Below, piece by piece: positions 28,880-52,064 of a stretch of DNA of 57,279 nucleotides. Where the stretch lies: IMG/VR virus record IMGVR_UViG_3300017716_003587, positions 1 through 57,279 of that record. One strand, 5' to 3'. The notes below the pieces were generated by a model, which saw nothing but the letters and a program-made list of their open reading frames with translations, had not been told where the DNA came from and did no database searches. How positions within the stretch are numbered: the first letter of the stretch is position 1; the number at the start of each line of letters is the position of its first letter. The position numbers and the translations under genes are program-made. The stretch comes from a virus (Duplodnaviria; Caudoviricetes).

Positions 28880-31800
28880 GGGATCAGTGCCGCCGCTGCC
28901 TGTGCGTTGGCGACGGCGAGCGCGACTGCCTGCGGGTCGCCGTCGGGGAGGTTGATGATGAAGTTCTGGACCGGCTTGAACCGCACGGGGTCAACGGTAG
29001 TCGCGTCGGTCTCGTCGCCCGGCTTCGGCGTCGGGGTGGCGGTGCTGGCCGTGGTGCCCAGGCTGTTGACCTGGTCGATGAACGCTGCGATCGCCTCGTC
29101 GGACAGGCCGAGCGTCGCGATGAGCGCGAGCAGCTCGTCCTGGTTGAAGCCGAGGTTCGTTGCCGTGGTCACCAGATCGTCGACGTAGGCCTGCAGCTTC
29201 GCCGACACCTGATCGAGCGGCACGCCCTGGGCGATGAGGGTCTCGCCGAACTCGGCGATGGCGTCAAGGCTCGTTGTGAGCGCCGAGACGTTGGAGGCGC
29301 CGAACACGGTGCTGGCGTCGAGGCTGAAGACGCTGGTGCCTGCGATCTCGCGCTCGGCTGCGGTCAAGTCCTTCAGCTTCTTCGCGTTGACCTCGAAGAT
29401 CTGCGACACGTTCGAGTCGAACGTCGACAGGAACCCCTGGAGCCCCTGGGTGACGTCGGCCTGTGCGCCTGCGATGCCACCGGCGTTGCCGCCTGCGATC
29501 ACCTTGTCGCTGCCAGTGAGCCCACCGAACAGCTGGGCGGCTGCGCTCGCGGTCGCGTTCTTCAGTGGGTCGCCGAGCTGCCCGATCTTCTGGAGCGAGT
29601 TGGTGACGGCGGTCGAGATGACGTTGCTGATGTCGGCTTCGCTGTCGGCGAGCCCGTCCGCGATGGCCTGGCCGATGTCCTTGCCGAACTCGTACCCGGT
29701 GCTGGTGGTCCCGGCAGTGCCGGCCATCGCCGACAGGGCGAGCTGATTCGCAGCCTGAGACACGACGGCGCTGCCCTCGCGGATGCCGAGCGCGAGACCC
29801 TGACTGATGAACCGGCCCATCTCCGTCGTCACCCTGGAGGGCGAGCCGAACTCGAAGACGCTATCGAACGCTGCGGCGACCGACCTGGCGACGGCGGCCG
29901 CTGCGTCGGCTGCCTTCTGGGCGCGAGCCCGCAGGCCCCGCTCGAAGCCATCTGCTGTGAGTCGGCCTGCCCGCTCGCCGGCCGCGCCGCCCTGGCGCGC
30001 CAGGGTGTCGGCGGTGCTGTTGAGGCTGGAGGCGTCGAGCTCAGCCTTCACCGGGATCGGCTCGGCCAGGCCGGCGGCGAGCTGGTCGTAGATGTTGACC
30101 GTATCGAGGACCGGCACGGCGTTGGCGATGCCGTCGTTGTAGGCAGCGGTGATCGCGTCGCGCAGCGCCTGGTCCTCGACGCCATCGAGCGCCGCGCCAA
30201 GGATGCCGAGAGTGGCAGCGGTGAGGCTGGCCTCGTCGAAGATGACGCCTTCGTTGATGCCAGCTTCGGTGACGCCGGACAGCTTCGTCTTCAGGTCTTC
30301 GAGGGCGATGTCGAGCGCCGCCTGGTCGACGATGCCGCCACCGACCTTGAGGTCGGTGAACTGGCCGGCGACCGCGACGACAGCGGCATCGAACGAGGCG
30401 GCAAGACCCTGCGGGTCCCGGTTGCCGAAGATCGAGTCGATCGCAGCCGACACGGCGTCGGCCTTGATCTTTGCGTCCTCGAGCGCCCGACCCATCGACT
30501 CGGTGAACCGAGGGGTCGCCTCGGTCTCGACGACCTCGCGCAGCCCCTTGTACCCGTCGGCGAACGGCCCGAACTTGTCGGACGCCTGGTCGATGCTGAG
30601 CCCGATCGACGAGAACAGCTTGGGCGTCGTGACCCCTGCGAATGCCGTCTCGGCGTTGGCGAGCGCAATCGCGTCCTTCAGCGCGACGTACGCAGCGGTG
30701 ACCGCGTCGACGGCCTCCTGGTTCTCGTAGATCGCCGTGGTGTTCGGTTCATTGAACGGATTGAAGTCGACGTCGAAGAACCCGCCGTTACTCGTGGACG
30801 ACACCTGCTGGCCGCCCACCCTGGCGATCAGATCGTCGAACGCGTCGCCGCCCTCGCGGAACGCAGCGATGACGTCCTGCTGCTTGATGCCCAGCTCGGT
30901 CAGCTGTGGCAGGATGCTGAGGAGCTGCTCCTTCAGGGCAGCGCCGAGCGCCGAGTCGGAGGCGTTGTCCAGGGCCTCCTTGAGGTCGATGGCTCCATCC
31001 TCGCCCGCCTTCAGCCCGTCGGCGAGGTCGTTCTGCAGGGCATCGGCGAGCGAGCGCGCTGCAGCCTCGGCGTCTTCGGCGGCCTTCTGAGCCTTGCCGA
31101 GCGCCGTACCGATCAGGGCGGCGCCACCACCGACGACGGCGGCGACGGGCCCGCCGATCGCCGCGCCGGTCAGCGACGCCGAGATGACGCTGATGAGTCC
31201 GCTGCCGCCGGCCGAACCTTCGGCCTTGCCGCCGATGAACCCGCCGACGCCCGAGACGATCGCCGAGCCGATGACGGCGCCGATCGCTGCGCCCTGCGAC
31301 TTGGCGATCTGAGTCAGCTCGGAGAGCCCGGAGCGGAAGCCGGTCGCGATCTGGCCTGCGCCGAACTTCACCCGGTCGCGGAAGCTGACCGTGAACTGGT
31401 CGCCCGCCACCGCTCCAGGGCGCTTGAACAGCGGGGCCTGGCGGGTGCCGGCCGATGCGAACTCGGCGAGGGCGGCGGCGATGCGGGTGCCGGCGTTCTG
31501 GAACGCCTGGCTGAACGCCGTACCGATCTGGCGGAAGCCGCCCGCGACCTGCGAGCCTCGCGCTGCGACGGTGGCGAACCCTCGCGAGACGGTGTCGCGG
31601 CACAGGATCCCCTTCAGGGTCGCCTCGTCGATGCCGTTCGTGATCTTCGCGATCTCGGCTCGGGCTGCGGCGAACCCGGCAGGGCTCAGCTTCACCTGGC
31701 TGTTCGACCCGAAGGCACGCAGCTTGCGCTGCAGATCGTCGAGCTCAGCGAACGCGCTCTTGAACACCGAGGCCGACGCCCGTGCACCGCCGCCGCCGAG

Positions 31801-34518
31801 ACCACCGATCCCGCTAAACAGGCCGTTGGTGAAGCCGCGGGCCGACGGCAGCCGGGAGGTGAACCCCTGAGCGAACGCGCCGGCGCCGTCCTGACCGAGC
31901 GTGCGGAAGCCGCGCAGCAGTCGCGGGAGGGCGAAGGCGGCGGCGAGAGCGACGGCGATGATCTGCGGGTCGAACGCAGCCTTGGCCAGGTCGCCGAACG
32001 CTCCGCTGACCAACGATGCGAGGCCGGGCAGGTTCTGGATGAAGGCCCGACCGAAGCCTTCGATGAACCGGATCGCGACGAGCGCTGCTGCGGCGGCGAT
32101 GGCGGCGAGGGCGGTGACGAACTTCGGGTTGGTGACGATCGAGCCGATCGCGAAGCCGATGGTCTCGACGATCTGCAGCGCACCCTTGCCGACCTCGAGC
32201 AGGTTGGCCTTCGTGAAGATCCCCTTGAAGAAGGCGAGGATCCGCTCACCCACGGGCTTCAGCGCAGGGATGATCTTGTCGGCCAGCGACGCGAACGCCG
32301 CAACGATGCCGCCGAGTGGCCCGCCGATGACGAACCCTGCGATGCCCGCGCCGGCGGCCGCCACGAGGCGGTTGCCGCCGACTGCTTCGGCGATCGTCTT
32401 GCCGACGTCGCCGATCTTGCTGGCCAGGCTCTGCAGCCGAGGCAGTGCGTCCTGCACGAACTCGACGACGGCGTCCTTGGCGGTGATGAGGGCCGAGGAG
32501 ATCGTCCGTCCGAACGCTGCGAGAACGGGCAGGACCCGCTCCTGCGCGAAGGTGACGAAGGTGCGCAGCGCCGGGATCAGCTTGTTCGTGATGAAGTCCT
32601 GGAAGCCAGACGTCGCGTCGGCCGCCTGAACGAACCGGTTGTTGACCTCTGCGCCGAGCTCCCCGATCCCAGCGACGACCTTGGTGCGGTCCGACACGAA
32701 GAAGTCGAGCACGCCGCTGAACAGATCCTTCAGCCGACCGAGCGGCCCGGCGACCAGCGTGCGGATGGTGTCGGCGAGGCCGCGGAACGCCTCGCCGATC
32801 TGGGGGAAGTCCCTCGCCAGGACCGACAGGGTGCCGCCGATCAGGCCGGCGGCGAGCACGAGCGCACCGAACGGGGTGGCGGCGAGCGCTGCAGCACGAC
32901 CGACAAGAGAGATGACCTCGATGGCCCCCTTCGCAGCGATGATCGCCCCGAGCCCCTTCGCGACGCCGCCGAGGAAGGTGCGCAGCACATCGAGCCCCGG
33001 GCCGACCTCACCCTTCACGAAGTTGGCGAGCCCCTGCAGTGTCGTCTGCGCTCCGAGCACAGCCACCTTCAGCGGCTCGGCGATCGACCCGATCAACGAC
33101 GCGCCGAAGTCAGCGAACGACTCCTTCAGGTTGGCCACCCGGCCACCGAGGGTCTCGGCGAGGTCCTGGCTGGCGCCCACCAGCCGCTCGTCCTGCTGCA
33201 ATCCGGTGATGAGCCCGGTGACGAACAGATCGGAGGTGATCTCGCCTGCCTCCTGCATCTCGACGAGCTGCCGGACGTTGCCGCCGGTCAGCTGGTCGGC
33301 GAGGATCTGGCGGATGTTGAGGCCGGGCAGGTTCTCGGCGAGCTGGTTGAGCTCGTCGCCCTGGAGGCGGCCGGCGGAGACGACCTGGCCGATGGCCCGC
33401 TGGATGCGGTTCAGCTCGTCCACCCCGCCGCCGGTGAGCGCGACAGCGTCGGCGATGGCGGTGACTCGAGGGATCACGTCTTCGGTGGCGGTGCCGATCG
33501 CGAGGAAGCCCTTGGCGAGATCGGCGACGCCGACGAGATCGAACGGGGTGGTCTTCGCGAACTCCTTGACCTGGCCGAGCAGCAGGTTGGTGTCCTCGAT
33601 GCTGCCGGTGAGCGCGAGGAACTGCTTGTTGATCCGCTCGAGGTCGGAGAATCGCTGGAACCCGGAGGTGAGGAGGCCGGCGACGCCGACGCCACCGGCC
33701 ACCCCACCCAGCCCGACGCCTGCTCCGCGACCCGTGACGCCGCCGAGCACGCCGCCGGACACCTGCCGGTTCAGCTGCTGGATGGTGCGCGACTGACGCG
33801 ACACCGTCTCCGACAGCAGCCGCTCCTGCCGATTGAACGACCCTCGGATCAACTGCTCGCGTCGGGTCAGCGCAGTCGAGGTGCCCTCGGTGAAGACCCG
33901 GTTCGTGTTCCGGATCTTCGCGGTGAACGAGTCGAACACCCGCCCGGCCGCGCCGGTCGCGGTGCGGGCCGTGCCCGCGATGATGGCGCCGAGACCCTTC
34001 TCCAGCCGGCCAATGTTCTCGATGACGGCGCGAGTGAGCTGGATGCGCTGCTGGCCGGCCTGACGCTGAGCGATGAGGCCGGACTGGGCGGCCTTCTGTG
34101 CTTCGATGTTGAGGCGGGCGTTCGCGGCGCGAGCCGATTCGATGTCGGCCTGGCGGGCGCGGTCGGCGGTGAGGCGCTGGTCGATGATCGCCTGCCGCTG
34201 CAGGGTCTTCGACTTCGTGATCTCCGTCTGCAGGTTGCGCAGGCCCTGATCGATCGACGACACCGCAGCGCCGACGGCGGTGAACGCCTGCTGCAGCTGG
34301 AAGGCCTCGCGCCCCGCCTTCGTCAGCCCGGAGTTGACCTTCGAGATCGAGGTGGCGACGCGGCCAGTGCCGACCTGCAGCTTCGAGGTGGTGGTGACGA
34401 GTCGCTGCGCGGCGGCGTTCGCCTTCTCGCTTCCCTCGCGAACGGCCTGCTCGGCCGCCTGGATGCCGCGCTGGTCGACGAGGTAGTCGACATTGACGAC
34501 GACATCAGGATCGGCCAC
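28876..34518 (-). CDS. Tape measure protein
   Basis: 1880 aa, Ala/Gly-rich; FAKTTPFDL...GRLQGDELNQLAE tape-measure domain. Confidence 0.93.
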   Translation of the reverse strand: MADPDVVVNVDYLVDQRGIQAAEQAVREGSEKANAAAQRLVTTTSKLQVGTGRVATSISKVNSGLTKAGREAFQLQQAFTAVGAAVSSIDQGLRNLQTEITKSKTLQRQAIIDQRLTADRARQADIESARAANARLNIEAQKAAQSGLIAQRQAGQQRIQLTRAVIENIGRLEKGLGAIIAGTARTATGAAGRVFDSFTAKIRNTNRVFTEGTSTALTRREQLIRGSFNRQERLLSETVSRQSRTIQQLNRQVSGGVLGGVTGRGAGVGLGGVAGGVGVAGLLTSGFQRFSDLERINKQFLALTGSIEDTNLLLGQVKEFAKTTPFDLVGVADLAKGFLAIGTATEDVIPRVTAIADAVALTGGGVDELNRIQRAIGQVVSAGRLQGDELNQLAENLPGLNIRQILADQLTGGNVRQLVEMQEAGEITSDLFVTGLITGLQQDERLVGASQDLAETLGGRVANLKESFADFGASLIGSIAEPLKVAVLGAQTTLQGLANFVKGEVGPGLDVLRTFLGGVAKGLGAIIAAKGAIEVISLVGRAAALAATPFGALVLAAGLIGGTLSVLARDFPQIGEAFRGLADTIRTLVAGPLGRLKDLFSGVLDFFVSDRTKVVAGIGELGAEVNNRFVQAADATSGFQDFITNKLIPALRTFVTFAQERVLPVLAAFGRTISSALITAKDAVVEFVQDALPRLQSLASKIGDVGKTIAEAVGGNRLVAAAGAGIAGFVIGGPLGGIVAAFASLADKIIPALKPVGERILAFFKGIFTKANLLEVGKGALQIVETIGFAIGSIVTNPKFVTALAAIAAAAALVAIRFIEGFGRAFIQNLPGLASLVSGAFGDLAKAAFDPQIIAVALAAAFALPRLLRGFRTLGQDGAGAFAQGFTSRLPSARGFTNGLFSGIGGLGGGGARASASVFKSAFAELDDLQRKLRAFGSNSQVKLSPAGFAAARAEIAKITNGIDEATLKGILCRDTVSRGFATVAARGSQVAGGFRQIGTAFSQAFQNAGTRIAAALAEFASAGTRQAPLFKRPGAVAGDQFTVSFRDRVKFGAGQIATGFRSGLSELTQIAKSQGAAIGAVIGSAIVSGVGGFIGGKAEGSAGGSGLISVISASLTGAAIGGPVAAVVGGGAALIGTALGKAQKAAEDAEAAARSLADALQNDLADGLKAGEDGAIDLKEALDNASDSALGAALKEQLLSILPQLTELGIKQQDVIAAFREGGDAFDDLIARVGGQQVSSTSNGGFFDVDFNPFNEPNTTAIYENQEAVDAVTAAYVALKDAIALANAETAFAGVTTPKLFSSIGLSIDQASDKFGPFADGYKGLREVVETEATPRFTESMGRALEDAKIKADAVSAAIDSIFGNRDPQGLAASFDAAVVAVAGQFTDLKVGGGIVDQAALDIALEDLKTKLSGVTEAGINEGVIFDEASLTAATLGILGAALDGVEDQALRDAITAAYNDGIANAVPVLDTVNIYDQLAAGLAEPIPVKAELDASSLNSTADTLARQGGAAGERAGRLTADGFERGLRARAQKAADAAAAVARSVAAAFDSVFEFGSPSRVTTEMGRFISQGLALGIREGSAVVSQAANQLALSAMAGTAGTTSTGYEFGKDIGQAIADGLADSEADISNVISTAVTNSLQKIGQLGDPLKNATASAAAQLFGGLTGSDKVIAGGNAGGIAGAQADVTQGLQGFLSTFDSNVSQIFEVNAKKLKDLTAAEREIAGTSVFSLDASTVFGASNVSALTTSLDAIAEFGETLIAQGVPLDQVSAKLQAYVDDLVTTATNLGFNQDELLALIATLGLSDEAIAAFIDQVNSLGTTASTATPTPKPGDETDATTVDPVRFKPVQNFIINLPDGDPQAVALAVANAQAAAALIP

Positions 34519-35275: not shown

Positions 35276-35809
35276 TTAGAGATCCGGCGACCGGCCGATG
35301 GCGTTGCGGAACGCCGCTTCGAGGGCACGCTCCATGAACCGGCCCGGCTTCACGCCGGGGTGGTTGACCCGGTCGGTACGGACGATCTTGTTGATCCCGA
35401 GGTCGGGGCGGCCCGACTGGAACCGCTTGGCCTGACCTCGCGGCCGGAACGGCTTGGGCGCTGCCCGCTGCGGGAGGCCGGTGACGGTCGCCTGGAACTG
35501 GAGGAACTTCGCGTTCTTCGGCGTGATGACGTGCGGGGGCGCGCCGGCGTTGAGGATGCCGACATGGTCGACGCTCGACGACATGGTGATCTTCACCGGG
35601 AACTCGTTGCCGGACACCTGGGCGGTGATCGACCCCTTGCCGGCGCCGGTGCGCTCCTGGTAGTCGCGTGCGAACGTGGCGTTGGCGCGATTCTCGGCGT
35701 CGTTCGCGATCCCGTGGACGGTCGCGCCGACCTTCTTCTCGGCGGCACCCTCCAGCTTGGCGGCGAGCGACGAGCGGGTCGTCAGCGTGCGAGAGACGAC
35801 GTTGGCCAT
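35276..35809 (-). CDS. HK97 gp10-like neck/tail-completion protein
   Basis: PHVITPKNAKFLQF...VNHPGVKPGRFMERAL. Confidence 0.7.
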   Translation of the reverse strand: MANVVSRTLTTRSSLAAKLEGAAEKKVGATVHGIANDAENRANATFARDYQERTGAGKGSITAQVSGNEFPVKITMSSSVDHVGILNAGAPPHVITPKNAKFLQFQATVTGLPQRAAPKPFRPRGQAKRFQSGRPDLGINKIVRTDRVNHPGVKPGRFMERALEAAFRNAIGRSPDL

Positions 35810-36366
35810 CAGCCACCGCCGAACGGGACGTCGACCGTCACCGCCGTCACCCAGCCGACCACGCCACCACGAGGCGGCAGCGGGGTGAGTGGAGCGAGCG
35901 CGATGTTGCCGCAGCCGCGGACCGAGTCCGGCATCAGGCTGCGCTGAGAGTTCATGTGGAGCAGCTTGCGGTACATCGCCTCGCCGTGCGCGTACGACTG
36001 GCGGGCCGCCTCGTTCTGGGCAACCGGGTCCGGGGCGACGATCGTGCCCTCGGCGACCTGGGCGGTCGGCCAACCGGACTCGAGGAGCCGGATCGTGAAC
36101 TGGGCCCGCACCAACGGCAGCGGCAGCAGCCGGCCGCCGGGGGCCGACGCCTGCGACGGGCTCATCGTGGTGAACGCGACGCTGAGCGCATCAGCGACGC
36201 CGTCGTCGCCGTTGCCGAGCGTCACGTAGGCCTGCAGCGGGTCGCACTCGACCTCAGCGAAGCAGGGGAGGAGCGCGTCGAAGACGTTGGTGAGCAGATG
36301 CGTTGCGATCGCGTGCAGGTCGACGCAGCAGACGGCGGGCGGGTTGGCGCAATCGGAGACGAGCAT
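35809..36366 (-). CDS. Probable tail terminator
   Basis: Position; PLPPRGGVVGWV C-terminal motif. Confidence 0.6.
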   Translation of the reverse strand: MLVSDCANPPAVCCVDLHAIATHLLTNVFDALLPCFAEVECDPLQAYVTLGNGDDGVADALSVAFTTMSPSQASAPGGRLLPLPLVRAQFTIRLLESGWPTAQVAEGTIVAPDPVAQNEAARQSYAHGEAMYRKLLHMNSQRSLMPDSVRGCGNIALAPLTPLPPRGGVVGWVTAVTVDVPFGGG

Positions 36367-36385
36367 GACCGAAGCGTAGACGCGA

Positions 36386-36415
36386 CACCGCCCGAGGATC
36401 GCTCCTCGGGCGGTG
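36386..36415 (-). terminator. 13-bp GC-rich hairpin downstream of major tail gene
   Basis: CACCGCCCGAGGA-tcgc-TCCTCGGGCGGTG; weak U-tract. Confidence 0.6.
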
Positions 36416-36437
36416 CGCTCGAGCCCCCCTCGAAAGG

Positions 36438-37160
36438 TCAGCTGCCGGCGGGCAGATCCACGTAGCCGTCGGCGACGGCGGCGAGGATCGCGTCGTACTC
36501 GGCCTGGGTGTAGCCGACCTCGACGTACGCGCTGTTCGGGATGTACGTCGAGCCCGGGTAGTCGTTCCACGGGCCGTTGTACAGGTTGGGGTTGTTGGTC
36601 GCCTTGCCGGTGAAGGTGAGCAGCTTCACCTCGTTGGCGAAGTTCGAGGCGCCGCGCTGCAGCTTGACCTTGCCGAAGATGTGGCCGACGGCGACAGGGG
36701 TCGAGCCGTCGGAGGCGACACAGGAACCGGACCCGGCATAGATCGCCGAGGTGATGACCTCGAGGTACACGCCGTTGCGCTGGCCGGCCGAGTAGAGACG
36801 CTCGGCGAAACCGATCGTCTTGCCGGCGAAGCTGCCGCCGGCCTTGCCGAGGACGGCGGTGCCGCCGAACAGCATCACCATCGCCTCGTAGTCGTGGAAG
36901 CCGAACTCGCCCGACAGGTTGTAGCGCTTGGTGACGTCGTCCTGTTCGTAGGTGAACATGATGTCGCCGCACGCGTTCTTCGGCTCGAAGACGGTGCCTT
37001 CCTCGATGTCCGGATCGGCGTTGAGGGTGACGAGCGCGGCGGTCACGATGCCGCCGTTGACGCCACCGATGGGGGTGCAGTCGGTATCGAGCGCAGCGGC
37101 ACGCACGACGCATGCATTCAGCTGGCCAATGGCGACGCCGCCAGCAAGGTTCGTTGCCAT
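36438..37160 (-). CDS. Major tail (tube) protein
   Basis: 240 aa; IEEGTVFEPKNACG, YNGPWNDYP motifs; GAAAGGA RBS; position. Confidence 0.8.
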   Translation of the reverse strand: MATNLAGGVAIGQLNACVVRAAALDTDCTPIGGVNGGIVTAALVTLNADPDIEEGTVFEPKNACGDIMFTYEQDDVTKRYNLSGEFGFHDYEAMVMLFGGTAVLGKAGGSFAGKTIGFAERLYSAGQRNGVYLEVITSAIYAGSGSCVASDGSTPVAVGHIFGKVKLQRGASNFANEVKLLTFTGKATNNPNLYNGPWNDYPGSTYIPNSAYVEVGYTQAEYDAILAAVADGYVDLPAGS

Positions 37161-37233
37161 GAGGTCGGTCCTTTCGAGGGTGAAACCTGGATTGGACAGA
37201 TCTTCGCGACCGTCGTCGCGCTATGTCTACCGA

Positions 37234-37310
37234 TGGTGGCGGGGGGGAGATTCGAACTCCCGACCTGCGCCTGTTGAGAGCGCCGTGCTACCTGGCTGCA
37301 CCACCCCGCG
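37234..37310 (-). tRNA. Atypical tRNA, anticodon CAA, initiator-Met-like body, encoded CCA
   Basis: 77-nt cloverleaf: CGCGGGG TG GTGC AGCCAGGTA GCAC G GCGCT CTCAACA GGCGC AGGTC GGGAG TTCGAAT CTCCC CCCCGCC A CCA. Confidence 0.85.
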
Positions 37311-37317
37311 TCGTTGG

Positions 37318-37572
37318 CTACATCGTGACCGGTCCGGACCGGACGAGGAGGCCGAGTTCGTAAGACTTCGCCGGGTTCGCATGGACCCAGGTGTGGCAGT
37401 CGAGACAGAGGTGCGCGCAGTTCTCGGTGGTGCCACGCCCGCCGTGGGATCGCATCAGCCGATGGTGGAAGTGGGTGGCGCGACGGGCGCAGCCTTCCCG
37501 CTCGCACCTGCCGCCCGACCGTTTGCGCACCTCGGCCTTCACGGCCGACGAGAAGTCGGTGGAACGCTTCAC
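37318..37572 (-). CDS. HNH endonuclease
   Basis: CEREGC...HHRLMRSHGG...ENCAHLCLDCHTWVH. Confidence 0.85.
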   Translation of the reverse strand: MKRSTDFSSAVKAEVRKRSGGRCEREGCARRATHFHHRLMRSHGGRGTTENCAHLCLDCHTWVHANPAKSYELGLLVRSGPVTM

Positions 37573-38330
37573 GAACCGGCGGGGCCTTCGACCTCGACGA
37601 GCTGCCAGCCGTGGGTGAGCTCCGGGGTCCACACGCCGGATTGTGCGGCGCCGCCGTAGCCGTAGACGGAGAACCAGCGGGACAGGCGGGGAAGGCCGAC
37701 GTCGGCGCCGCCCGCTTCGAGCTGGTCGCGCAGCACGACGGTGGCGCCCTGGATGTTGGCCTGGGTGACGCCGGGGGCGATCGCCGCGGCCTGGTTGGTG
37801 CCGGCGGCGATCAGTTCGCAGATCAGCTCGAGCGCGGCCTGCTTCGTGATCAGGTCGATCGGGAAGCCGAACATCATGGTGATCTCGAAGACGCCGTCGG
37901 CGTTGGGGAGGAGTCGCAGGTTCGAGTTCGACGGCCACGACCCTTCACGGCGGAACAGGAACTCGTTGTCGATCAGCCCGTACTCGGATGGGTTGAGCTC
38001 GACGCCGTCGATGACGACGGAGATCACCTGGGGGCGGGGGCCGCGCAGTGGGATGACGTCCATGCCCCCGAAGCGAGCGTCGGGGTGGAGGCCGTACCCG
38101 TCTTCGAAGACGGACCCGAAGCAGTTGTTCCAGGTGCTGACGGGTCGCACGGTGACGGTGCAGCGTCCGTGGACTCGACCGTCGGAGAGCAGGGTGAGGA
38201 GGTCGGAGGCGGCGTCGATGGCGTAGCCGATGAGGGCCTCGTCGTCGTTCAGGTCGATCGCGCACTTGCAGCCGTCGGCGATCACTTCGGCGGGCGTGAC
38301 GAACGCCTCGCATGCGAACTGCAGGGTCAT
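37569..38330 (-). CDS. Head-to-tail adaptor
   Basis: AASDLLTLLS...CTVTVRP...VISVVIDG...AALELICEL pattern typical of actinophage adaptors. Confidence 0.75.
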   Translation of the reverse strand: MTLQFACEAFVTPAEVIADGCKCAIDLNDDEALIGYAIDAASDLLTLLSDGRVHGRCTVTVRPVSTWNNCFGSVFEDGYGLHPDARFGGMDVIPLRGPRPQVISVVIDGVELNPSEYGLIDNEFLFRREGSWPSNSNLRLLPNADGVFEITMMFGFPIDLITKQAALELICELIAAGTNQAAAIAPGVTQANIQGATVVLRDQLEAGGADVGLPRLSRWFSVYGYGGAAQSGVWTPELTHGWQLVEVEGPAGS

Positions 38331-38334
38331 GACG

Positions 38335-39291
38335 TCAAGAGTACCGCGAGTCGACCAGCTCAGTGATCCACTCGGCGGCGCGGTCGGCGGCCATCCCCAT
38401 CTGCGACCAGGGCGCGTACACGTCGGCCATCTGCGACTCGCGGAACTCGTCCTCGATGTCGAGCATGTCGTCGAGCTCCAACTTCAGCATCGACTCGACG
38501 TCGACGGAGTACCCGGGGATGTGGGACCAGAACCGGAGGCCGTGTTCGATGTGGCGCCGATACCAGGGGGCGTTCATCCAGATCGTGTGGCGGCCGAGGA
38601 GCGCGAACTCGTAGCCGATCGAGCTGTTGTCGACGACGAGCACTTCGCAATGCTGGAACACGTCGGCATCGGTCTCGAGGACGCACAGCCCGGCCTCGGT
38701 CATCGCCCGGTCGATGCTGCCACCCCAGCGCGGGTGGGAGTGGCCGAACACGGTCCAGCCTTGCTGCTCCCAGGCTTCGACGATCGACGGGAGGTAGTCG
38801 CGGTAGTGCTCCCATGCCCCACGCATCTCGGGGGAGAGGGTGAGGCGCTCGCCAGCGTCCCAGTGCCAGGCGAAGCAGACGGAACGGGGGACGTCGGGCT
38901 GGACGCCGATCCAGCGGTCCATCTTCGGGCAGCCGGCGGCGACGGCCGGGGCGGGGGCCCAGCGCTCGGCGACGGTGTCGGACGGGCAGATGTAGCCGAT
39001 CACGCCAGAGTGCCTGGATCCGCCGCCTGAGTAACCGGGCAGGGTCGCTGTCTTGGTGTCGCCGAGGTAGGCCTGGCCTGCTCCGTGTTCGACGTAGATC
39101 ATCTGGTTCATGTTCCGCAGGTGCTGGACGTCGACCCATCCGGCGACCATCGCGATGCGGCCGCGGTACGGGCGGTAGCAGGGCGATTCGACCGGGTGGA
39201 CGGTGCCTTGGAGGCGGGCGGGGAGCGCCGCGAAGATGGGCTCCATGTGGTCGAGGTAGTGCGGCTGCGATGCCGTCACGTCGATCTTCAC
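38335..39291 (-). CDS. GT-B fold TagB/TagF-like CDP-glycerol glycerophosphotransferase-like protein
   Basis: EHG, GCPKMD, HSHP, LVVDNSSIGYEFALLGRHTI. Confidence 0.65.
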   Translation of the reverse strand: MKIDVTASQPHYLDHMEPIFAALPARLQGTVHPVESPCYRPYRGRIAMVAGWVDVQHLRNMNQMIYVEHGAGQAYLGDTKTATLPGYSGGGSRHSGVIGYICPSDTVAERWAPAPAVAAGCPKMDRWIGVQPDVPRSVCFAWHWDAGERLTLSPEMRGAWEHYRDYLPSIVEAWEQQGWTVFGHSHPRWGGSIDRAMTEAGLCVLETDADVFQHCEVLVVDNSSIGYEFALLGRHTIWMNAPWYRRHIEHGLRFWSHIPGYSVDVESMLKLELDDMLDIEDEFRESQMADVYAPWSQMGMAADRAAEWITELVDSRYS

Positions 39292-40319
39292 CAGTGGCTC
39301 CGTTCGAGGTTCGTTAGGTAGGTGTCGCGCCACTTCGACCAGCGAGGCACCGTGGCCTCCGAGCGCTGCTGGAAGCTGTCGAGTGCTCGGCGGTTGCCGG
39401 CGAGGGTGTCGAGGGTCTCGCCGAGGTCGACGTAGTTCGTCGCTGCCTCCTTCACCGGCCCGCACGCCAGGTTCAGTAGGCGGCCGGCCTCTCGCCGGAC
39501 AGGGGTCAGGACGGAAGCGAGTTCGGAGTTGGGAGACGCGTCCGGCATGACGACGGCGAGGCCGCGAGCGGCAGCTTCGAGCGCCGGGAGGCAGAGGCCG
39601 CCGTACTTGCGAGGCAGCACGAGGACGTGCTGGTTCTCGTACATCGACCAGCGGTCGTCGACGACGTTCGGCTGCTTGATGATCTTGATGTTCCGCTGCC
39701 GCATCGGGTCGGGGATGTCGCCGGCGATGGTGTGGATCGTCACTTCGATCGGGTTGCGGGTGCGGCTCAGCGATCGCATGAACACGTCAGTGCCGTTGCG
39801 GTCGAAGGCTGCCCGTTTGCCGATGACGTGCAGGACGCGGAGGGGTCCGTCTTCGGGGTGAGCGGCGGTGCGGGCGACGTCGGGCATCGGGACCGGCATG
39901 ACGGTGCCGGCGGGAAGGTGGTCGAGCCGCCACGAGGTGGGCCACCACCAGATCGGCACGCCGTAGTGCTCGTAGCCGCGCTGGTCATGACGGTAGAACT
40001 CGGGGTTGCCCTGAACAATGAGCCGCACGTCCATCTCCCGGGCCCAGTGCGGCATCCGCCAGTCGTAGGGCGTCTCGACGGTGAAGACGACGTCGAGCCC
40101 ATCGAGCCATTCACGCACGGTCGCTTCGTCGAGGGTGTGGTCTTTCGGTTCGTAGGCGATGTGGGTCGGGTTCGGGCACCACGAGTCGTCGACCGCGCAG
40201 TCCGGTCGGGGCATGTCGATGACGAGGGTCCGCTCGACGGGCATGTGCTCGACGAAGTTGCGGGTCTGGATGGCGAGACCGCGAGCGATCTCGGTGCGGG
40301 CGATCACCCCGAGCCTCAT
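39288..40319 (-). CDS. Glycosyltransferase (GT4-like, GT-B)
   Basis: YENQHVLVLPRKYGGLCLPALEAAARGLAVVMPDASPNSE. Confidence 0.8.
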   Translation of the reverse strand: MRLGVIARTEIARGLAIQTRNFVEHMPVERTLVIDMPRPDCAVDDSWCPNPTHIAYEPKDHTLDEATVREWLDGLDVVFTVETPYDWRMPHWAREMDVRLIVQGNPEFYRHDQRGYEHYGVPIWWWPTSWRLDHLPAGTVMPVPMPDVARTAAHPEDGPLRVLHVIGKRAAFDRNGTDVFMRSLSRTRNPIEVTIHTIAGDIPDPMRQRNIKIIKQPNVVDDRWSMYENQHVLVLPRKYGGLCLPALEAAARGLAVVMPDASPNSELASVLTPVRREAGRLLNLACGPVKEAATNYVDLGETLDTLAGNRRALDSFQQRSEATVPRWSKWRDTYLTNLERSHW

Positions 40320-41953
40320 CAGAACACCTGGCTTTCATCGAACTTGGGCTCGCCCTGGCGGCCGTCGAGGTGATAGCTGCGCTTGATGTTGCCGCTGTCG
40401 GGATGGAAGATCGCGAGCCGATGCTGGCGGGGGTGCGCCTGGGCGACGGAGTGCATCCGATCCTCGATGAAGCAGGTTGCGTCGACGGAGAACTCGCGCC
40501 GCAGGATGTGGCGGTAGTAGTCGGCCGACGCAAGGTGAGGGCGCTGCGACCACTGGTGGGTGCGGCGTAGCGGCACACTCATCATCTCGATCGTGTCGTG
40601 GTCGACCATCAGGTGTTCGTGTTCGGGGTGAACCGCGGCCTCGTGATGGAACCGCAGCACGTCGACGGCGCCCTGAGAGACGAGCGCCTCGCATTCGGCC
40701 CACGGGATCGGCTCATCGACGACGAGCGGCGTGTCGTGTTCCATGAACAGCACGTTCGGGGTGGTCACCTCGAGGTTGAGTACCGAACGGGTGAGGCGGG
40801 CCTGGTGGACGTGGGTGTCGGACTGGATGACGTAGGCGTTGCCGACCTGCTTCTGCAGGATCCAGTGGAGGCGGCGCAGGTACTCGAGGTAGCCGTCGCG
40901 CAGGTGGCGCTGCTCGGCCCTGATTCCGTCGGCCATGACGAGCACCGGGGTGCCTTCGCCGACCACTTCGAGGGCGGAGTAGATGACCGACATGATCTGG
41001 TCGGTGGACGGATGCAGGATCGACGGCGAGGTCGACACGAGGATCGTGGTCTCCGGGCTGGCCGTGGCGGGGATGCCGATGCGGGTCCGGTCGGCGTTGA
41101 GGCGGCGGGCCATGCCGCGCTTGTAGGCGCCGTACCAGCATTGCCACTGGTTCGACCACCAGACGCGGTCGGAGAGGAGACCTTCGATGGTGCCGCCGAC
41201 GCCGTCCCAGTCGGAGACGAACGTGGCGGGCCCCGATCCGAAGGCGTGATGCCAGTACGGGTCGACTTCGATGATCGGGATCGCGCCGGCTTCGAGGGTC
41301 TCGAAGAACCGGAACGTGTCCTGTGTGGCGGGACCGCCGGGGCAGGGGACGACCCACGAGTCGACGAGTTCGGCGAGGTACTCCTCGCGCGGCATGCCCT
41401 GCGTGAAGCCGGTGGTTTGCGTGAGCCGACCGGGGACGCGTGCTCGTGCCCGCCTCAGCCCGTTTGCGGCACGTTTGCGACGCTCGTTGGTGATCTGCCC
41501 AGCGAAGGACCAGAGCGTCCCCTTCGTCGGCGGTTCGGCCGGCATCAACGACGGGGTGTCGGCCTTCCATCCGTCGCCGAAGAAGTAGGCCCACGGCATG
41601 TCGCCGTGGACCTTCACGTCGGGCAGCATCACCCACAGCGCCAGGTTGTCGTGGCGCACCTGCTTCCACGGGAAGATGTGCTCCTCATCGCCGACGAGGA
41701 TGAGCAGCACGCCGGCCAGCTTGGCGAGTTCGGCGTTCAGCCGCTCGATGTCGTGCTCGGATGCGTGGTGGCGGGCCGGCAGGACGACGATGGCCCGCTC
41801 GACCCCTTCCGGGACGTGGTCGGTCTCCTGGTAGGCGTAGCTGTGGCCGGTATCCCACAGCTTGTTGCCGAACAGGTGGTCGAGCATCCCGGTGTCCCAC
41901 GGGCCGAGCGCCTGGATGTGCGGGTGGAAGCTGAGCCAGAGGACCCGCACCAT
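40319..41953 (-). CDS. Two-domain glycosyltransferase: exostosin/GT47-like plus GT-A-like
   Basis: WSFAGQ...PCPGG...DTFRFFETLEAGAIPII; then TILVSTSP...MADG...VTTPNVLFMEHD. Confidence 0.75.
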   Translation of the reverse strand: MVRVLWLSFHPHIQALGPWDTGMLDHLFGNKLWDTGHSYAYQETDHVPEGVERAIVVLPARHHASEHDIERLNAELAKLAGVLLILVGDEEHIFPWKQVRHDNLALWVMLPDVKVHGDMPWAYFFGDGWKADTPSLMPAEPPTKGTLWSFAGQITNERRKRAANGLRRARARVPGRLTQTTGFTQGMPREEYLAELVDSWVVPCPGGPATQDTFRFFETLEAGAIPIIEVDPYWHHAFGSGPATFVSDWDGVGGTIEGLLSDRVWWSNQWQCWYGAYKRGMARRLNADRTRIGIPATASPETTILVSTSPSILHPSTDQIMSVIYSALEVVGEGTPVLVMADGIRAEQRHLRDGYLEYLRRLHWILQKQVGNAYVIQSDTHVHQARLTRSVLNLEVTTPNVLFMEHDTPLVVDEPIPWAECEALVSQGAVDVLRFHHEAAVHPEHEHLMVDHDTIEMMSVPLRRTHQWSQRPHLASADYYRHILRREFSVDATCFIEDRMHSVAQAHPRQHRLAIFHPDSGNIKRSYHLDGRQGEPKFDESQVF

Positions 41954-42702
41954 CAGAACAGCGCCCGCTCGAAGTGCCAGTGCTCCTCGTGGTCGGTGCC
42001 GAGATGGGTCGCCATCCAGCCGGCGTCCGACATGAACTGACGCAGCTCGGTGTCGGTGTGGCCGAAGTTCTCCATCAGGTCCGGGTGGACCGACACCCAC
42101 ACGTTGCGGAGCCGCTCCAGCGGGTCGGTGAGCAGACCGATGGCGCCGCGCAGCACCATGAGCTCGGCGCCTTCGACGTCGATGTTCAGCGCGTGGGGCG
42201 CGTAGCCAGTGATATCGGCGAAGTCGTCGAGGGTGATCGAGTGGATGTCGCCCGGGTGTTCGAGCGAGCGGTAGGCCATGCCCCCGAGTTCGGGTGCGTC
42301 GATGTCGGCGCAGGCTGGCCAGTGGTCGAACGCGTCGGCGTTGATCAACCCTGGCATCGTGTCGCTGTGGTCGGCGACGAAGCCCTGGAAGCAGGCGAGC
42401 GGCGGGTCGATGTTGTTGTGGACCCAGGTGCGGCGGATGTTGCCCCAGAACTCAGGTGAGGGCTCGAACAGCACCATCGCCTCCGGGTTGACGAACTCGC
42501 GTGCGATGATCGCCGAGATCCAGCCGTGCTCGGCGCCGACGTCGAAGAAGCAGTCGTTCCAGTGGAGGTGCTTGCGGAACGACTCGAACCGCTCGTACTC
42601 CCAGCCGCGCTGGGCGACCGGGTCGCCGGTGATCGCATCCCACTCGGCGATCGAGTTGGGCAGCCAGATCTGCCACCGGCCGTTGACGATTGCCTTCTTC
42701 AT
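41953..42702 (-). CDS. FkbM-family methyltransferase
   Basis: FFDVGAEHG, LFEP, ITLDDF, NIDVEGAELMVLRGA. Confidence 0.85.
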   Translation of the reverse strand: MKKAIVNGRWQIWLPNSIAEWDAITGDPVAQRGWEYERFESFRKHLHWNDCFFDVGAEHGWISAIIAREFVNPEAMVLFEPSPEFWGNIRRTWVHNNIDPPLACFQGFVADHSDTMPGLINADAFDHWPACADIDAPELGGMAYRSLEHPGDIHSITLDDFADITGYAPHALNIDVEGAELMVLRGAIGLLTDPLERLRNVWVSVHPDLMENFGHTDTELRQFMSDAGWMATHLGTDHEEHWHFERALF

Positions 42703-42971
42703 CCCTCACTCGCTTCCCACATGTCGACGATCTCCTGTTCGATGGCGAATTGGTCGCGCAGCATTTCGATCCCGGCCTCCAGGGTCCGGGCCCGGAACGC
42801 CACGGTTGGATCGGCTGGCAGCTGCAGGTCGTTGATGCGCCAGCGGCCCTCGCACCAGAACGACTCGTTGGGGCCACTGACGATGTGCGTGATCTGGCTC
42901 ACGAACGTCATGCGGATCGCCAGGTTGCCGATGGCAATCTCCTCGGTGAAGACGACCTCGTTGTCGCTCAC
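42699..42971 (-). CDS. Hypothetical protein within GT cassette
   Basis: GAAAGGGA RBS; overlaps both neighbours. Confidence 0.65.
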   Translation of the reverse strand: MSDNEVVFTEEIAIGNLAIRMTFVSQITHIVSGPNESFWCEGRWRINDLQLPADPTVAFRARTLEAGIEMLRDQFAIEQEIVDMWEASEG

Positions 42972-43984: not shown

Positions 43985-44033
43985 GGCAGCATCGTACACG
44001 ACCGTCTGATACACGCAAGCTATGATCGCGGCC
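43985..44033. promoter_or_regulatory. Back-to-back leaderless-type promoters (TACGAT on minus, TATGAT on plus)
   Basis: -10 hexamers 6 and 7 nt from starts at 43984 and 44034; TCTGATACACG motif between them. Confidence 0.6.
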
Positions 44034-44297
44034 ATGAGCGACGTGCCCCTCGACCAGCCCGCCCCGATGCAGCCGATGCGCCCCCATCCGCTGCCAATGC
44101 AGTTCTCCGCGCAGCCGACGATGGACGGCAAGATCGTCCTTCAGTTCTTCACGCCGCAGGGTCAGACGATCCTGTTCGTCGACGAAGAAGGCGCCGAGTC
44201 GATCGCCACGTCGATCATGCAGGCCGCGGCCGCAGCGGGGATGCAGGCGGGCGGGTTGATCAAGCCGCCCGCCGCCGGGCTCATCATCCCGAGGTAG
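44034..44297 (+). CDS. Small hypothetical protein, antisense to late operon
   Basis: MSDVPLDQPAPMQP...; good codon bias; own -10. Confidence 0.65.
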   Translation: MSDVPLDQPAPMQPMRPHPLPMQFSAQPTMDGKIVLQFFTPQGQTILFVDEEGAESIATSIMQAAAAAGMQAGGLIKPPAAGLIIPR

Positions 44298-51657: not shown

Positions 51658-52064
51658 CAGCCATACGCCTTGCCAGCGCGCGAGCCAAGCCAGGTGGTGC
51701 CGGCGTCGAGGGTCAGGAACGTGTACACGCTGGGGGTGCCGTAGGTTGGCGGCGTGGCGTCGGGCCAGTCGACGCTGGCAGGCCACGTCGGGGTGAACGC
51801 GCCACGGAGGATCAGCGTGAACAGCGTCGCCTTGCCCGACGGGGCCGGGTTCGAGAACGTGAACGTGCAGTTCTGATCCATCGTCACGTTGAAGACGCCG
51901 TAGGTGGCGGTGTCGAGCGTCTCGGTGGCGCCTGTGGCCGCGACCGTCAGGACATTCGACTCGATCGCACCGACGTTCTCGACGGACGCGCCGCCAGCGA
52001 CGAGAGGCAGATAGCTACCACCGCCTCCACCTCCGCCGCCGGGGATGATGAGGCCTACGCCCAT
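51657..52064 (-). CDS. Small fibre-like virion protein
   Basis: Poly-Gly linker; TFTFSNP...TWPASVDW...DAGTTW tail-fibre-type C-terminus. Confidence 0.65.
   Translation of the reverse strand: MGVGLIIPGGGGGGGGSYLPLVAGGASVENVGAIESNVLTVAATGATETLDTATYGVFNVTMDQNCTFTFSNPAPSGKATLFTLILRGAFTPTWPASVDWPDATPPTYGTPSVYTFLTLDAGTTWLGSRAGKAYG

What the first reader, a model, noticed from the sequence alone, without database searches (positions are those of the whole stretch)
37234..37310. Chimeric tRNA: initiator-fMet-like body with a CAA anticodon
Seen: full cloverleaf with CCA, unpaired C1:C72, G2-C71/C3-G70, A73, a 5' half close to bacterial tRNA-fMet (CGCGGGGTGG.GCAGCC.GGTAGC.CG), loop CTCAACA versus fMet CTCATAA, a pyrimidine at 37, a short variable loop, and no 3xG-C anticodon stem. 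Known: bacterial tRNA-Leu has a long variable arm; a 1:72 mismatch is a formylation determinant; VapC-type toxins cut the fMet anticodon loop. Inference: a nuclease-resistant decoy or anti-defence tRNA, a UUG-reading initiator (one TTG start with RBS at 10954), or a decaying gene.
Basis: partly seen in the sequence, partly recalled or inferred. Interest (0 to 1): 0.7.

Follow-up and report, generated by a model that had tools for sequence, protein, structure and literature searches.

The report
Start-tRNA look-alike carrying a leucine anticodon
A freshwater phage carries one intact tRNA gene whose body looks like the bacterial start (initiator) tRNA but whose anticodon reads the leucine codon UUG; it is a real and rare anticodon switch whose working role is still untested.

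Summary
Window 37234-37310 (minus strand) is a 77-nt tRNA gene with encoded CCA, anticodon CAA, C37, a 5-nt variable loop and an unpaired C1/C72. It is not an assembly error. A second assembly of the likely source sample and a contig from another study are identical. A roughly 95% relative from a third study keeps CAA and C37.

The body is initiator-like. The best E. coli match is the metZWV initiator genes. A home-made initiator-type model scores 72.4 bits, against 56.4 for a short-arm CAA model. Held-out short-arm CAA tRNAs score the other way round.

"Short arm plus CAA" is not new in itself. Streptomyces coelicolor has such a tRNA-Leu (PMC6614811), and at least 119 IMG/VR contigs carry one. 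Those keep leucine-type core features that this tRNA lacks.

Three relatives at 64-65% tail-protein identity have the same gene order but no tRNA.

Best reading (0.4): an anticodon-shifted initiator-type tRNA that pairs with UUG, is no longer a Met acceptor, and is charged, if at all, by LeuRS. Main rival (0.3): an inert mutant. It is a new variant of a known kind, of moderate interest.

The parts
37234..37310 (-). 77-nt tRNA gene with encoded CCA. It has an initiator-type acceptor and D arm, anticodon CAA, C37, a 5-nt variable loop and a C1/C72 mismatch.
   Evidence: ARAGORN. Rfam 52.3 bits. Cloverleaf is the minimum-energy fold. Model R1 gives 72.4 bits against R2 56.4. Contigs of runs X1 and X3 are identical.
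37272..37278 (-). Anticodon loop CUCAACA. The anticodon CAA is at 37274-37276, C37 at 37273 and A38 at 37272.
   Evidence: Rfam alignment. Positions 37272-37276 are unchanged in the diverged X4 contig; differences at that distance from a contig end are listed elsewhere in the same table.
37267..37283 (-). Anticodon arm. The X4 relative has C43>A (37267) and G40>C (37270). Their pairing partners, position 27 (37283) and position 30 (37280), lie too near the contig end to be reported.
   Evidence: tables 3 and 8.
37318..37572 (-). Small HNH endonuclease gene of 84 aa. Its GTG start overlaps the stop of the adaptor gene (GTGA). Its TAG stop lies 7 nt before the tRNA.
   Evidence: PHROG HNH families, best E 5.2e-19, and Pfam PF01844. 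Translation. The gene is conserved at the same place in L002-L004.
37315..37321 (-). Heptamer GTAGCCA holding the HNH stop codon. It is the left copy of a 6-of-7 direct repeat that flanks the tRNA.
   Evidence: Sequence. Alignment with relatives.
37224..37230 (-). Heptamer GTAGACA, the right copy of the repeat. In the three relatives without a tRNA this conserved heptamer holds the HNH stop codon.
   Evidence: TAGACA is invariant in alignment A1. Frames of the relatives.
36438..37160 (-). Major tail protein gene. Its ATG, with an AAGGA ribosome-binding site, lies 73 nt downstream of the tRNA.
   Evidence: phrog_792, E 1.8e-13. GC3 frame support. Ribosome-binding site.
37569..38330 (-). Head-tail adaptor gene upstream of the HNH gene.
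   Evidence: phrog_783, E 8.6e-22.

Best explanation
SHOWN:
- This is a real, structurally intact tRNA gene of a 67% GC tailed phage related distantly to actinobacteriophages.
- Its body is of the initiator (tRNA-fMet) type. The anticodon loop reads CUCAACA instead of CUCAUAA, so it pairs with UUG.
- It lies in about 97-100 nt of extra DNA directly after the HNH stop codon, in the late structural operon. Three syntenic relatives lack this DNA.
- A roughly 95% identical relative in another sample keeps it with the same anticodon loop.

INFERRED:
- It is the product of an alloacceptor anticodon shift on a phage-borne initiator-type tRNA.
- Loss of U36 removes a main MetRS determinant, so it is no longer a Met/fMet tRNA.
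- Among synthetases that serve A73 tRNAs, only LeuRS ignores the anticodon without needing G3:U70. If the tRNA is charged at all, it most likely carries Leu, which reads UUG synonymously.
- It would be co-transcribed with the late genes, cut out by RNase P and 3' processing, and serve as an auxiliary UUG decoder.
For: - The gene is real and the sequence is confirmed.
- The body is initiator-type. E. coli metZWV is the best match, at 76.6% over all 77 nt. It has the highest identity among class I tRNAs in 1,713 ARAGORN calls. The initiator-like group gives the best 5'-half profile, 10.2 bits against 6.6 or less. R1 scores 72.4 against R2 56.4 bits. Five held-out short-arm CAA tRNAs score 26-38 bits the other way, and two held-out initiator-like tRNAs score +18.7 and +14.7.
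- All four stems are fully paired except 1:72, and differences from E. coli tRNA-fMet in stems are pair-preserving.
- The two reportable changes in the X4 relative both fall in the 3' strand of the anticodon stem, which is the pattern expected of compensated pair changes. The loop is unchanged.
- Short-arm CAA tRNAs are common in phages: at least 119 IMG/VR contigs, with 78 of the first 80 confirmed by ARAGORN. One such tRNA is leucylated and essential in S. coelicolor (PMC6614811). A short-arm UUG reader is therefore a recurring phage cargo.
- A pyrimidine at 37 occurs in a conserved phage tRNA class: U37 in 25 of 1,500 tRNAs, mostly tRNA-Asp. It therefore does not by itself mean a dead gene.
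- The same 5' half (U11:A24) occurs in IMG/VR with CAU (2 contigs) and CUG (5 contigs) anticodons.
Against: - There is no expression, processing or charging evidence.
- The tRNA lacks the leucine-type core that the 64 length-matched phage short-arm CAA tRNAs keep: A15 with U48, a Leu-type D arm, G1 and A37. By E. coli rules (as summarised in PMC6614811) these are LeuRS determinants.
- C37 destroys the A36-A37-A38 motif that UNN-reading tRNAs normally carry (my recalled knowledge). C37 is found in only 4 of 1,500 phage tRNAs.
- The 1:72 mismatch should weaken EF-Tu binding (recalled).
- UUG is rare in this phage: 55 of 931 Leu codons in a crude gene set, and 31 of those 55 sit in six doubtful short ORFs.
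- The tRNA is absent from 3 of 3 relatives at 64-65% tail-protein identity.
- No homologue turned up in three targeted IMG/VR scans, two genome scans or one metagenome scan.
- The substitution rate in the X4 relative (2 in 43 reportable tRNA positions) is no lower than in the flanking coding DNA.
Confidence: 0.4

Rival explanations
1. Inert mutant. A phage-borne initiator-type tRNA-Met gene suffered a UA-to-AC change at positions 36-37. That change abolished Met identity without creating a new one. It persists because it is small and young, and it has no decoding role.
For: [quoted passage not shown] - C37 is nearly unknown among working tRNAs: 4 of 1,500.
- The leucine core features are missing.
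- 3 of 3 more distant relatives lack the gene, and no other homologue was found.
- The X4 relative shows no rate slowdown.
Against: - Every stem remains perfectly paired and all tertiary-contact bases are kept.
- The loop is unchanged in a lineage that has diverged 4-8% in neighbouring genes.
- Both visible substitutions fall in one stem strand. By my own estimate that is about a 1 in 10 event for any one stem if changes were random.
- Phages usually shed useless DNA (general knowledge).
Confidence: 0.3
2. Non-decoding RNA. The tRNA shape is kept for something other than reading codons. One option is an RNase P / 3'-processing site that separates the head-connector and HNH message from the major-tail-protein message. 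Another is a decoy that occupies a host enzyme or toxin recognising the initiator acceptor end.
For: - The gene sits inside the late operon, 7 nt after the HNH stop and 73 nt before the tail gene. No promoter-like or terminator-like site lies within 36900-37800.
- The acceptor, D and T parts are conserved initiator-like, while the anticodon arm is the free-to-vary part.
- Phage tRNAs acting against tRNA-targeting defences are documented (PMC10264068, passages; abstracts of PMC11555353 and PMC12409363 in the listing).
Against: - Relatives express the same operon without it.
- A decoy for a nuclease that reads the fMet anticodon arm should keep that arm, and this tRNA does not.
- There is no direct evidence for either variant of this reading.
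Confidence: 0.15
3. A dedicated UUG initiator. The tRNA is charged, formylated through its retained acceptor determinants, and starts translation at UUG codons with perfect pairing.
For: - The 1:72 mismatch, G2:C71, C3:G70, G4:C69 and A73 are all retained.
- Many phage initiator-like CAU tRNAs also lack three G:C pairs and share U31.G39. The absence of the three pairs is therefore less damning in phages.
- Initiator anticodon mutants can start translation at matching codons in E. coli (recalled literature, not read here).
Against: - Only 2 plausible TTG starts with a ribosome-binding site, at 10954 and 44131, in about 50 genes.
- A11:U24 and two of the three G:C pairs are absent.
- MetRS needs CAU, and no synthetase is known to be directed by CAA (recalled identity rules).
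- The normal initiator already reads UUG starts (recalled).
Confidence: 0.08
4. Integration-related tRNA. It is either an attP copy of a host tRNA, or a replacement tRNA-Leu(CAA) for a host gene destroyed by integration (tRNA-dependent lysogeny, as in mycobacteriophage Gaia).
For: [quoted passage not shown]
Against: - There is no tyrosine or serine recombinase in the window by six-frame search. The record is only about 75% complete, so this is not conclusive.
- The gene is full-length and lies in the tail operon, not beside an integrase.
- Neither its 5' half nor its 3' half matches any of 185,579 species genomes exactly.
- Its body is not leucine-like.
Confidence: 0.03

Closest known systems
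Bacterial initiator tRNA (tRNA-fMet), for example E. coli metZ/W/V
   Same: - The acceptor 5' strand CGCGGGG, the mismatch at 1:72, G2:C71, C3:G70, G4:C69 and A73.
- The D loop and the AGGUC variable loop.
- 59 of 77 bases identical.
   Different: - Anticodon CAA instead of CAU, and C37 instead of A37.
- C72 instead of A72.
- U11:A24 instead of A11:U24.
- Only one of the three G:C pairs of the anticodon stem.
- T loop UUCGAAU instead of UUCAAAU.
Phage-encoded initiator-like tRNAs with CAU (26 phage-borne sequences from IMG/VR loci, aligned together with two E. coli copies, including L149 and L154 from 64-69% GC contigs)
   Same: - NGCGGG acceptor with 1:72 unpaired.
- Often no three G:C pairs, U31.G39 closing the anticodon stem, and a UUCGAAU T loop.
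- L149 and L154 share U11:A24.
   Different: All of them keep CAU and a purine at 37. Identity to the window tRNA is only 54-55 of 74 for the two closest by D stem.
[quoted passage not shown]
   Same: A tRNA-Met body without a long arm whose anticodon became CAA through U36A. The isotype model and the anticodon disagree.
   Different: It is a eukaryotic elongator-Met body, keeps A37, and is thought to be silenced. The tRNA here is an initiator-type body in a phage, with an added A37C change.
Type I (short-arm) tRNA-Leu(CAA) of Streptomyces coelicolor (PMC6614811; sections read), and the phage short-arm CAA tRNAs found here
   Same: CAA anticodon, 5-nt variable loop, U8:A14 and an ACCA end. These are the features that paper found to matter for ScoLeuRS.
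   Different: - No sequence kinship: at most 54 of 77 identical.
- It lacks A15 with U48, the Leu-type D arm, G1 and A37.
- It scores 16 bits lower on the short-arm CAA model than on the initiator-like model.
Alloacceptor anticodon shift, also called tRNA gene recruitment or remolding (concept recalled; no paper on it read here)
   Same: A tRNA gene of one isotype acquires the anticodon of another by point mutation.
   Different: Known working cases involve synthetases that follow the anticodon or a retained identity set. Met-to-Leu removes the old identity without supplying leucine determinants.
Phage tRNAs with anticodon-loop changes predicted to resist host anticodon nucleases (PMC10264068; abstract and passages)
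   Same: A phage-borne tRNA whose anticodon loop departs from the norm at a position next to the anticodon.
   Different: In those cases the anticodon still matches the isotype. Here the anticodon itself has changed, and the host tRNA is unknown.

Membership tests
Bacterial initiator tRNA (tRNA-fMet) | Anticodon CAU | tested here: not met
   The anticodon is CAA. It is confirmed in runs X1, X3 and X4.
Bacterial initiator tRNA (tRNA-fMet) | No Watson-Crick pair at 1:72, with G2:C71, C3:G70, G4:C69 and A73 (formylation determinants; feature list recalled) | tested here: met
   C1 opposite C72, and the other pairs and A73 are present. The usual partner is A72; here it is C72.
Bacterial initiator tRNA (tRNA-fMet) | Three consecutive G:C pairs, 29:41, 30:40 and 31:39 (recalled) | tested here: not met
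   The pairs are G29:C41, C30:G40 and U31.G39.
Bacterial initiator tRNA (tRNA-fMet) | A11:U24 in the D stem (recalled) | tested here: not met
   The pair is U11:A24. The same flip occurs in the phage CAU tRNAs L149 and L154.
Bacterial initiator tRNA (tRNA-fMet) | Overall body similarity (isotype-model test) | tested here: met
   R1 (initiator-like) 72.4 bits against R2 (short-arm CAA) 56.4 bits. Held-out controls behave as expected. The models are home-made from phage tRNAs plus two E. coli copies; these are not the tRNAscan-SE isotype models.
Type I tRNA-Leu(CAA) (S. coelicolor and phage short-arm CAA tRNAs) | CAA anticodon, 5-nt variable loop, U8:A14 and ACCA | tested here: met
   The criteria come from PMC6614811.
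Type I tRNA-Leu(CAA) (S. coelicolor and phage short-arm CAA tRNAs) | Leucine-type core: A15 with U48, Leu-type D arm, paired 1:72 and A37 | tested here: not met
   The window tRNA has G15 with C48, an initiator-type D arm, C1/C72 and C37. Compared with the consensus of 64 of the 100 unique phage short-arm CAA tRNAs, those of 77 nt. 78 of 78 in the first set have 1:72 paired, and 77 of 78 have A37.
Type I tRNA-Leu(CAA) (S. coelicolor and phage short-arm CAA tRNAs) | Leucylation by LeuRS | not testable with these tools
   This needs an aminoacylation assay.
Canonical bacterial (type II) tRNA-Leu | Long variable arm | tested here: not met
   The variable loop is 5 nt.
attP or host-tRNA fragment at a phage integration site | An exact copy of part of a host tRNA, next to an integrase | tested here: not met
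   0 exact matches of either half in genome contigs. No integrase family match in the window. The record is about 75% complete.
Nuclease-resistant phage tRNA (van den Berg et al. 2023 hypothesis) | The loop differs from the host's cognate tRNA at a nuclease recognition or cleavage site | not testable with these tools
   The host and its tRNAs are unknown. No actinobacterial genome handle could be obtained.

The most novel reading that the evidence does not exclude
The phage has turned an initiator tRNA into a private start tRNA for UUG. The tRNA would be charged with a non-Met amino acid (probably Leu), formylated through its intact acceptor determinants, and used to start translation at UUG with full codon-anticodon pairing. 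That would give the phage its own start-codon channel, for example for the genes starting at 10954 and 44131.
Probability: 0.07. Interest if true: 0.85.

Novelty: new variant of a known kind. Interest (0 to 1): 0.45.

Why it matters
If the tRNA works, it is a natural Met-to-Leu anticodon shift on an initiator scaffold. That would show that an actinobacterial LeuRS can adopt a foreign short-arm tRNA, and that phages rebuild tRNA bodies, perhaps to escape tRNA-targeting defences. Such a tRNA would also interest people who design orthogonal tRNAs.

If it is inert, it is a clean dated example of how a single loop mutation orphans a tRNA.

The side result may matter more than the single gene. Short-arm CAA tRNAs with a leucine-type core are widespread in phage contigs. 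I found no paper describing this in three searches.

Tried and rejected
- **Wrong neighbour ORF.** The 434-aa ORF at 35809-37113 was first taken as the neighbouring gene. It has no family hit, no phage match and no relatives. Its frame lacks the GC3 signal, so I dropped it as spurious.
- **Adaptor protein as a probe for relatives:** none found.
- **Exact or degenerate pattern scans for homologues of the tRNA.** IMG/VR gave 0 hits in each. Genome contigs gave 0 hits.
- **Metagenome scan for an initiator 5' half followed by CTCAANA**. It gave 21 stretches, and ARAGORN of 21 a tRNA. All 21 are ordinary initiator 5' parts (A11, U24) interrupted after CTCA by other sequence. Most look like a group I intron. 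They are not relatives.
- **BLAST against phages and plasmids at a loose E-value.** Only generic T-arm or weak whole-tRNA hits came back: tRNA-Val, Thr, Trp and Met.
- **Attempts to reach an actinobacterial genome, to compare host tRNAs.** A taxon name is not accepted as a centre. Two actinobacterial plasmid records gave only record-level handles, one accession was absent, and a protein probe of plasmids found nothing. As a result, no host-type tRNA set and no S. coelicolor tRNA-Leu(CAA) sequence could be compared.
- **Fold z-score**: uninformative at this GC content.
- **Promoter and terminator scan**: nothing found, so there is no sign of separate transcription.
- **Parts of the stretch without cover in runs X2-X4** are not evidence of absence.
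- **Substitution counts near the ends of the X4 contig** cannot be resolved. The 4 unlisted differences fit both compensated and uncompensated models.
- **Codon supply.** UUG is not enriched, so simple codon compensation is rejected as the main reason for the gene.
- **Earlier findings** by place and by sequence: nothing held.

Full report
**1. What is there**

ARAGORN finds one tRNA in the window, at 37234-37310 on the minus strand, with anticodon CAA. Rfam's tRNA model matches it end to end at 52.3 bits, E = 2.1e-08. The minimum-energy fold of the 77 nt is the cloverleaf with base 1 unpaired.

Reading the alignment gives these features:
- Acceptor stem with C1 opposite C72, then six Watson-Crick pairs, A73 and an encoded CCA.
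- D stem G10:C25, U11:A24, G12:C23, C13:G22.
- Anticodon stem G27:C43, C28:G42, G29:C41, C30:G40, U31.G39.
- Loop CUCAACA, that is U33, CAA, C37 and A38.
- Variable loop AGGUC.
- T arm GGGAG-UUCGAAU-CUCCC.

The gene is on the minus strand.

**2. Not an assembly error**

All of this comes from one call.
- A 53,210-nt Logan contig of run X1 (probably the source sample, so not independent) covers 36400-38400 at depth 607 with two differences, neither in the tRNA.
- Run X3, from a different study, has a 235-nt contig over 37130-37364 with no difference. The whole tRNA is therefore confirmed independently.
- Run X4, from a third study, holds a relative. Its three pieces over the tail gene and the tRNA show 11 differences in 223, 22 in 272 and 8 in 190 bases.
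- In the piece covering 37117-37306, the reportable differences inside the tRNA are 37267 G>T (C43 to A in the tRNA) and 37270 C>G (G40 to C).
- The anticodon, C37 and A38 (37272-37276) show no difference. Differences at the same distance from a contig end (31 bases) are listed elsewhere in the table, so a change there would have been reported.
- Four further differences lie within 30 bases of the contig ends and are not reported. The pairing partners of positions 40 and 43 (37280 and 37283) fall in that blind zone.

**3. Context**

The window is an IMG/VR virus record, linear, about 75% complete, and 65-70% GC throughout. The major head protein has only distant relatives (under 31% identity), nearly all in phages of Gordonia, Microbacterium, Mycobacterium, Streptomyces and Arthrobacter. 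An actinobacterial host is therefore likely but not shown.

Reading the minus strand downwards, the genes are:
- Portal, a head protein and the major head protein.
- Glycosyltransferases and a GDSL lipase.
- Head-tail adaptor, 37569-38330.
- An 84-aa HNH endonuclease, 37318-37572, whose GTG start overlaps the adaptor stop.
- The tRNA.
- The major tail protein, 36438-37160.
- The tape measure protein, 28876-34518.

No promoter-like or terminator-like site lies within 36900-37800. I infer that the tRNA is co-transcribed with the late genes. No integrase family matches the window.

**4. Relatives lack it**

The tail protein found three IMG/VR contigs at 64-65% identity. They share gene order on both sides, including the HNH gene. 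Neither their 10.7-kb loci nor their whole records hold any tRNA: 0 of 3 and 0 of 3.

Alignment shows about 97-100 extra bases in the window. In the relatives the HNH gene ends at the TAG of a conserved heptamer, GTAGACA. In the window that heptamer lies just after the tRNA (37224-37230), and the HNH gene ends in a similar heptamer, GTAGCCA, just before it (37315-37321).

This looks like a small insertion with a short target duplication. A chance 6-of-7 repeat, or loss in the relatives by deletion between the repeats, is not excluded.

**5. What the body resembles**

- Against 5,426 E. coli genomes, the only full-length matches (76.6%) lie in the metZ-metW-metV initiator cluster between mltA and amiC.
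- I removed the anticodon loop and scored the two halves against profiles of 22 anticodon groups built from 1,500 unique, mostly phage, tRNAs. The 5' half matched only three groups: CAU tRNAs with an unpaired 1:72 (10.2 bits), Pro (6.6) and Trp (0.7). The 3' half scored 18.0 on that group and 18.2 on the other CAU tRNAs, against 12.0 for Leu. The short-arm CAA subgroup gave no 5' match and 10.2 bits for the 3' half.
- Two covariance models gave the same answer. R1 was built from 28 initiator-like CAU tRNAs: 26 from phage contigs and 2 E. coli copies. R2 was built from 70 of the 100 unique short-arm CAA tRNAs. The window tRNA scores 72.4 bits on R1 and 56.4 on R2, even though its anticodon favours R2.
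- Controls behave as expected. Five held-out short-arm CAA tRNAs score 26-38 bits higher on R2. Two held-out CAU tRNAs with an unpaired 1:72 score 18.7 and 14.7 bits higher on R1.

It supports an initiator-type body.

**6. It is not a canonical initiator**

The anticodon is not CAU. A11:U24 is flipped to U11:A24. Only G29:C41 of the three G:C pairs remains.

These departures are common among phage initiator-like tRNAs. Many of the 26 with an NGCGGG acceptor have stems such as CCAGU/GCUGG, closed by U31.G39 as here, and a UUCGAAU T loop. A scan for the window's exact 5' end with the U11:A24 stem found 8 IMG/VR stretches, 7 of which are tRNAs:
- Two have CAU: L149 (69% GC, next to a terminase gene) and L154 (64% GC).
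- Five have CUG, in contigs of about 5 kb that carry a Zot-type assembly ATPase.

The scaffold therefore occurs with more than one anticodon. I did not test that note.

**7. Short arm plus CAA is not new**

S. coelicolor has a type I tRNA-Leu(CAA) with a 5-nt variable loop. Its LeuRS charges this tRNA, and the gene could not be deleted. Loop length, U8:A14 and C74 matter for charging, while A73 does not (PMC6614811; introduction, three results sections and the discussion read).

Of the first 80, ARAGORN a class I tRNA with CAA. Among those 78, position 37 is A in 77 and G in 1, and 1:72 is paired in all 78.

The 64 of length 77 share G1, A14, A15, a Leu-type D arm and U48 at 80% or more. The window tRNA differs at G1, A15, the D arm, A37 and U48. 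It is at most 54 of 77 identical to any of them. By homology it is not a member of that family.

**8. Which function**

Most of the identity rules used here are recalled. A few come from the introduction of PMC6614811.
- MetRS depends on CAU.
- Among the synthetases serving A73 tRNAs, only AlaRS (which needs G3:U70, absent here) and LeuRS ignore the anticodon.

The switch therefore removes Met identity. Leu is the only plausible charge, and Leu would read UUG synonymously.

For a working tRNA:
- The stems are intact and stem differences from E. coli tRNA-fMet preserve pairing.
- The loop is retained in a diverged relative, and both visible substitutions fall in one stem strand.
- Short-arm UUG readers are frequent in phages.
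- A conserved phage tRNA class carries a pyrimidine at 37: U37 in 25 of 1,500 tRNAs, mostly tRNA-Asp(GUC).

Against a working tRNA:
- The leucine core is missing.
- C37 is found in only 4 of 1,500 phage tRNAs.
- The 1:72 mismatch remains.
- UUG is rare in the phage: 55 of 931 Leu codons in 51 crude ORFs, with 31 of the 55 in six doubtful short ORFs, and no UUA at all.
- Three relatives lack the gene.
- There is no rate slowdown in X4.
- The same U36A event in a human Met-type gene is read as a probable pseudogene (PMC8450103).

For a UUG initiator, the acceptor determinants remain. However, I found only two plausible TTG starts with a ribosome-binding site, at 10954 and 44131.

My weights are:
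- Working UUG-pairing tRNA, probably Leu: 0.4.
- Inert mutant: 0.3.
- Non-decoding RNA (processing signal or decoy): 0.15.
- UUG initiator: 0.08.
- Integration-related: 0.03.

**9. Novelty**

Anticodon/isotype conflicts, short-arm tRNA-Leu(CAA) and odd phage anticodon loops are each known. This combination, on an initiator scaffold with C37 and C1/C72 in a phage late operon, was not described in the papers my searches returned. Those searches cover open-access text only. I class it as a new variant of a known kind, with interest 0.45.

Noticed in passing
L028-L146 (IMG/VR loci): Short-arm (class I) tRNAs with anticodon CAA, A73 and encoded CCA are widespread in phage contigs. They keep a leucine-type D arm with A15 and U48, as if the long arm of tRNA-Leu had been deleted. 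Three literature searches found no description of this in phages.
   Followed up: partly
Many loci among L040-L137, for example L041, L057, L060 and L074: A recurrent phage tRNA-Asp(GUC) carries U37 (loop YUGUCUA) instead of a purine. It accounts for most of the 25 U37 cases among 1,500 unique tRNAs. This may be an anticodon-loop escape variant.
   Followed up: no
L005-L025 (metagenome loci): 21 initiator-tRNA genes are interrupted directly after CTCA of the anticodon loop. Most carry sequence that looks like a group I intron, and a few (L016, L019, L021) carry unrelated sequence. ARAGORN calls none of them.
   Followed up: partly
L148, L150-L153 (contigs of about 4.6-5.8 kb): Small 40-43% GC viral contigs with a Zot-type assembly ATPase (inovirus-like) carry a tRNA with an initiator-type acceptor (C1/A72, A73), U11:A24 and a CUG (Gln) anticodon. 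I did not determine whether this is a host gene at an integration site or phage cargo.
   Followed up: partly
L034, L053, L084, L114 and others: Phage-encoded initiator-like CAU tRNAs commonly lack the three G:C pairs of the anticodon stem and close it with U31.G39. Some also have strongly shortened D arms.
   Followed up: no
window 37569-37572: The HNH gene's GTG start overlaps the adaptor gene's TGA stop (GTGA). A small HNH gene sits between the adaptor and the major tail gene in all four related phages, which is an unusual fixed position for an HNH gene.
   Followed up: partly
window 18099-19742 and 56074-57264: The large terminase gene lies about 36 kb from the portal gene and after the tail genes on the same strand. 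The portal ORF reaches within 15 bases of the record's end. The gene order therefore suggests a permuted or incomplete record.
   Followed up: no
window 39288-44131 and 49855-51786: At least two glycosyltransferase-like genes and a GDSL/SGNH lipase-like gene lie inside the virion structural module. This may point to virion glycosylation, as in some actinobacteriophages.
   Followed up: no
window 35809-37113: A 434-aa ORF overlapping the tail gene is an artefact of the high GC content. It has no GC3 signal and no homologues.
   Followed up: yes
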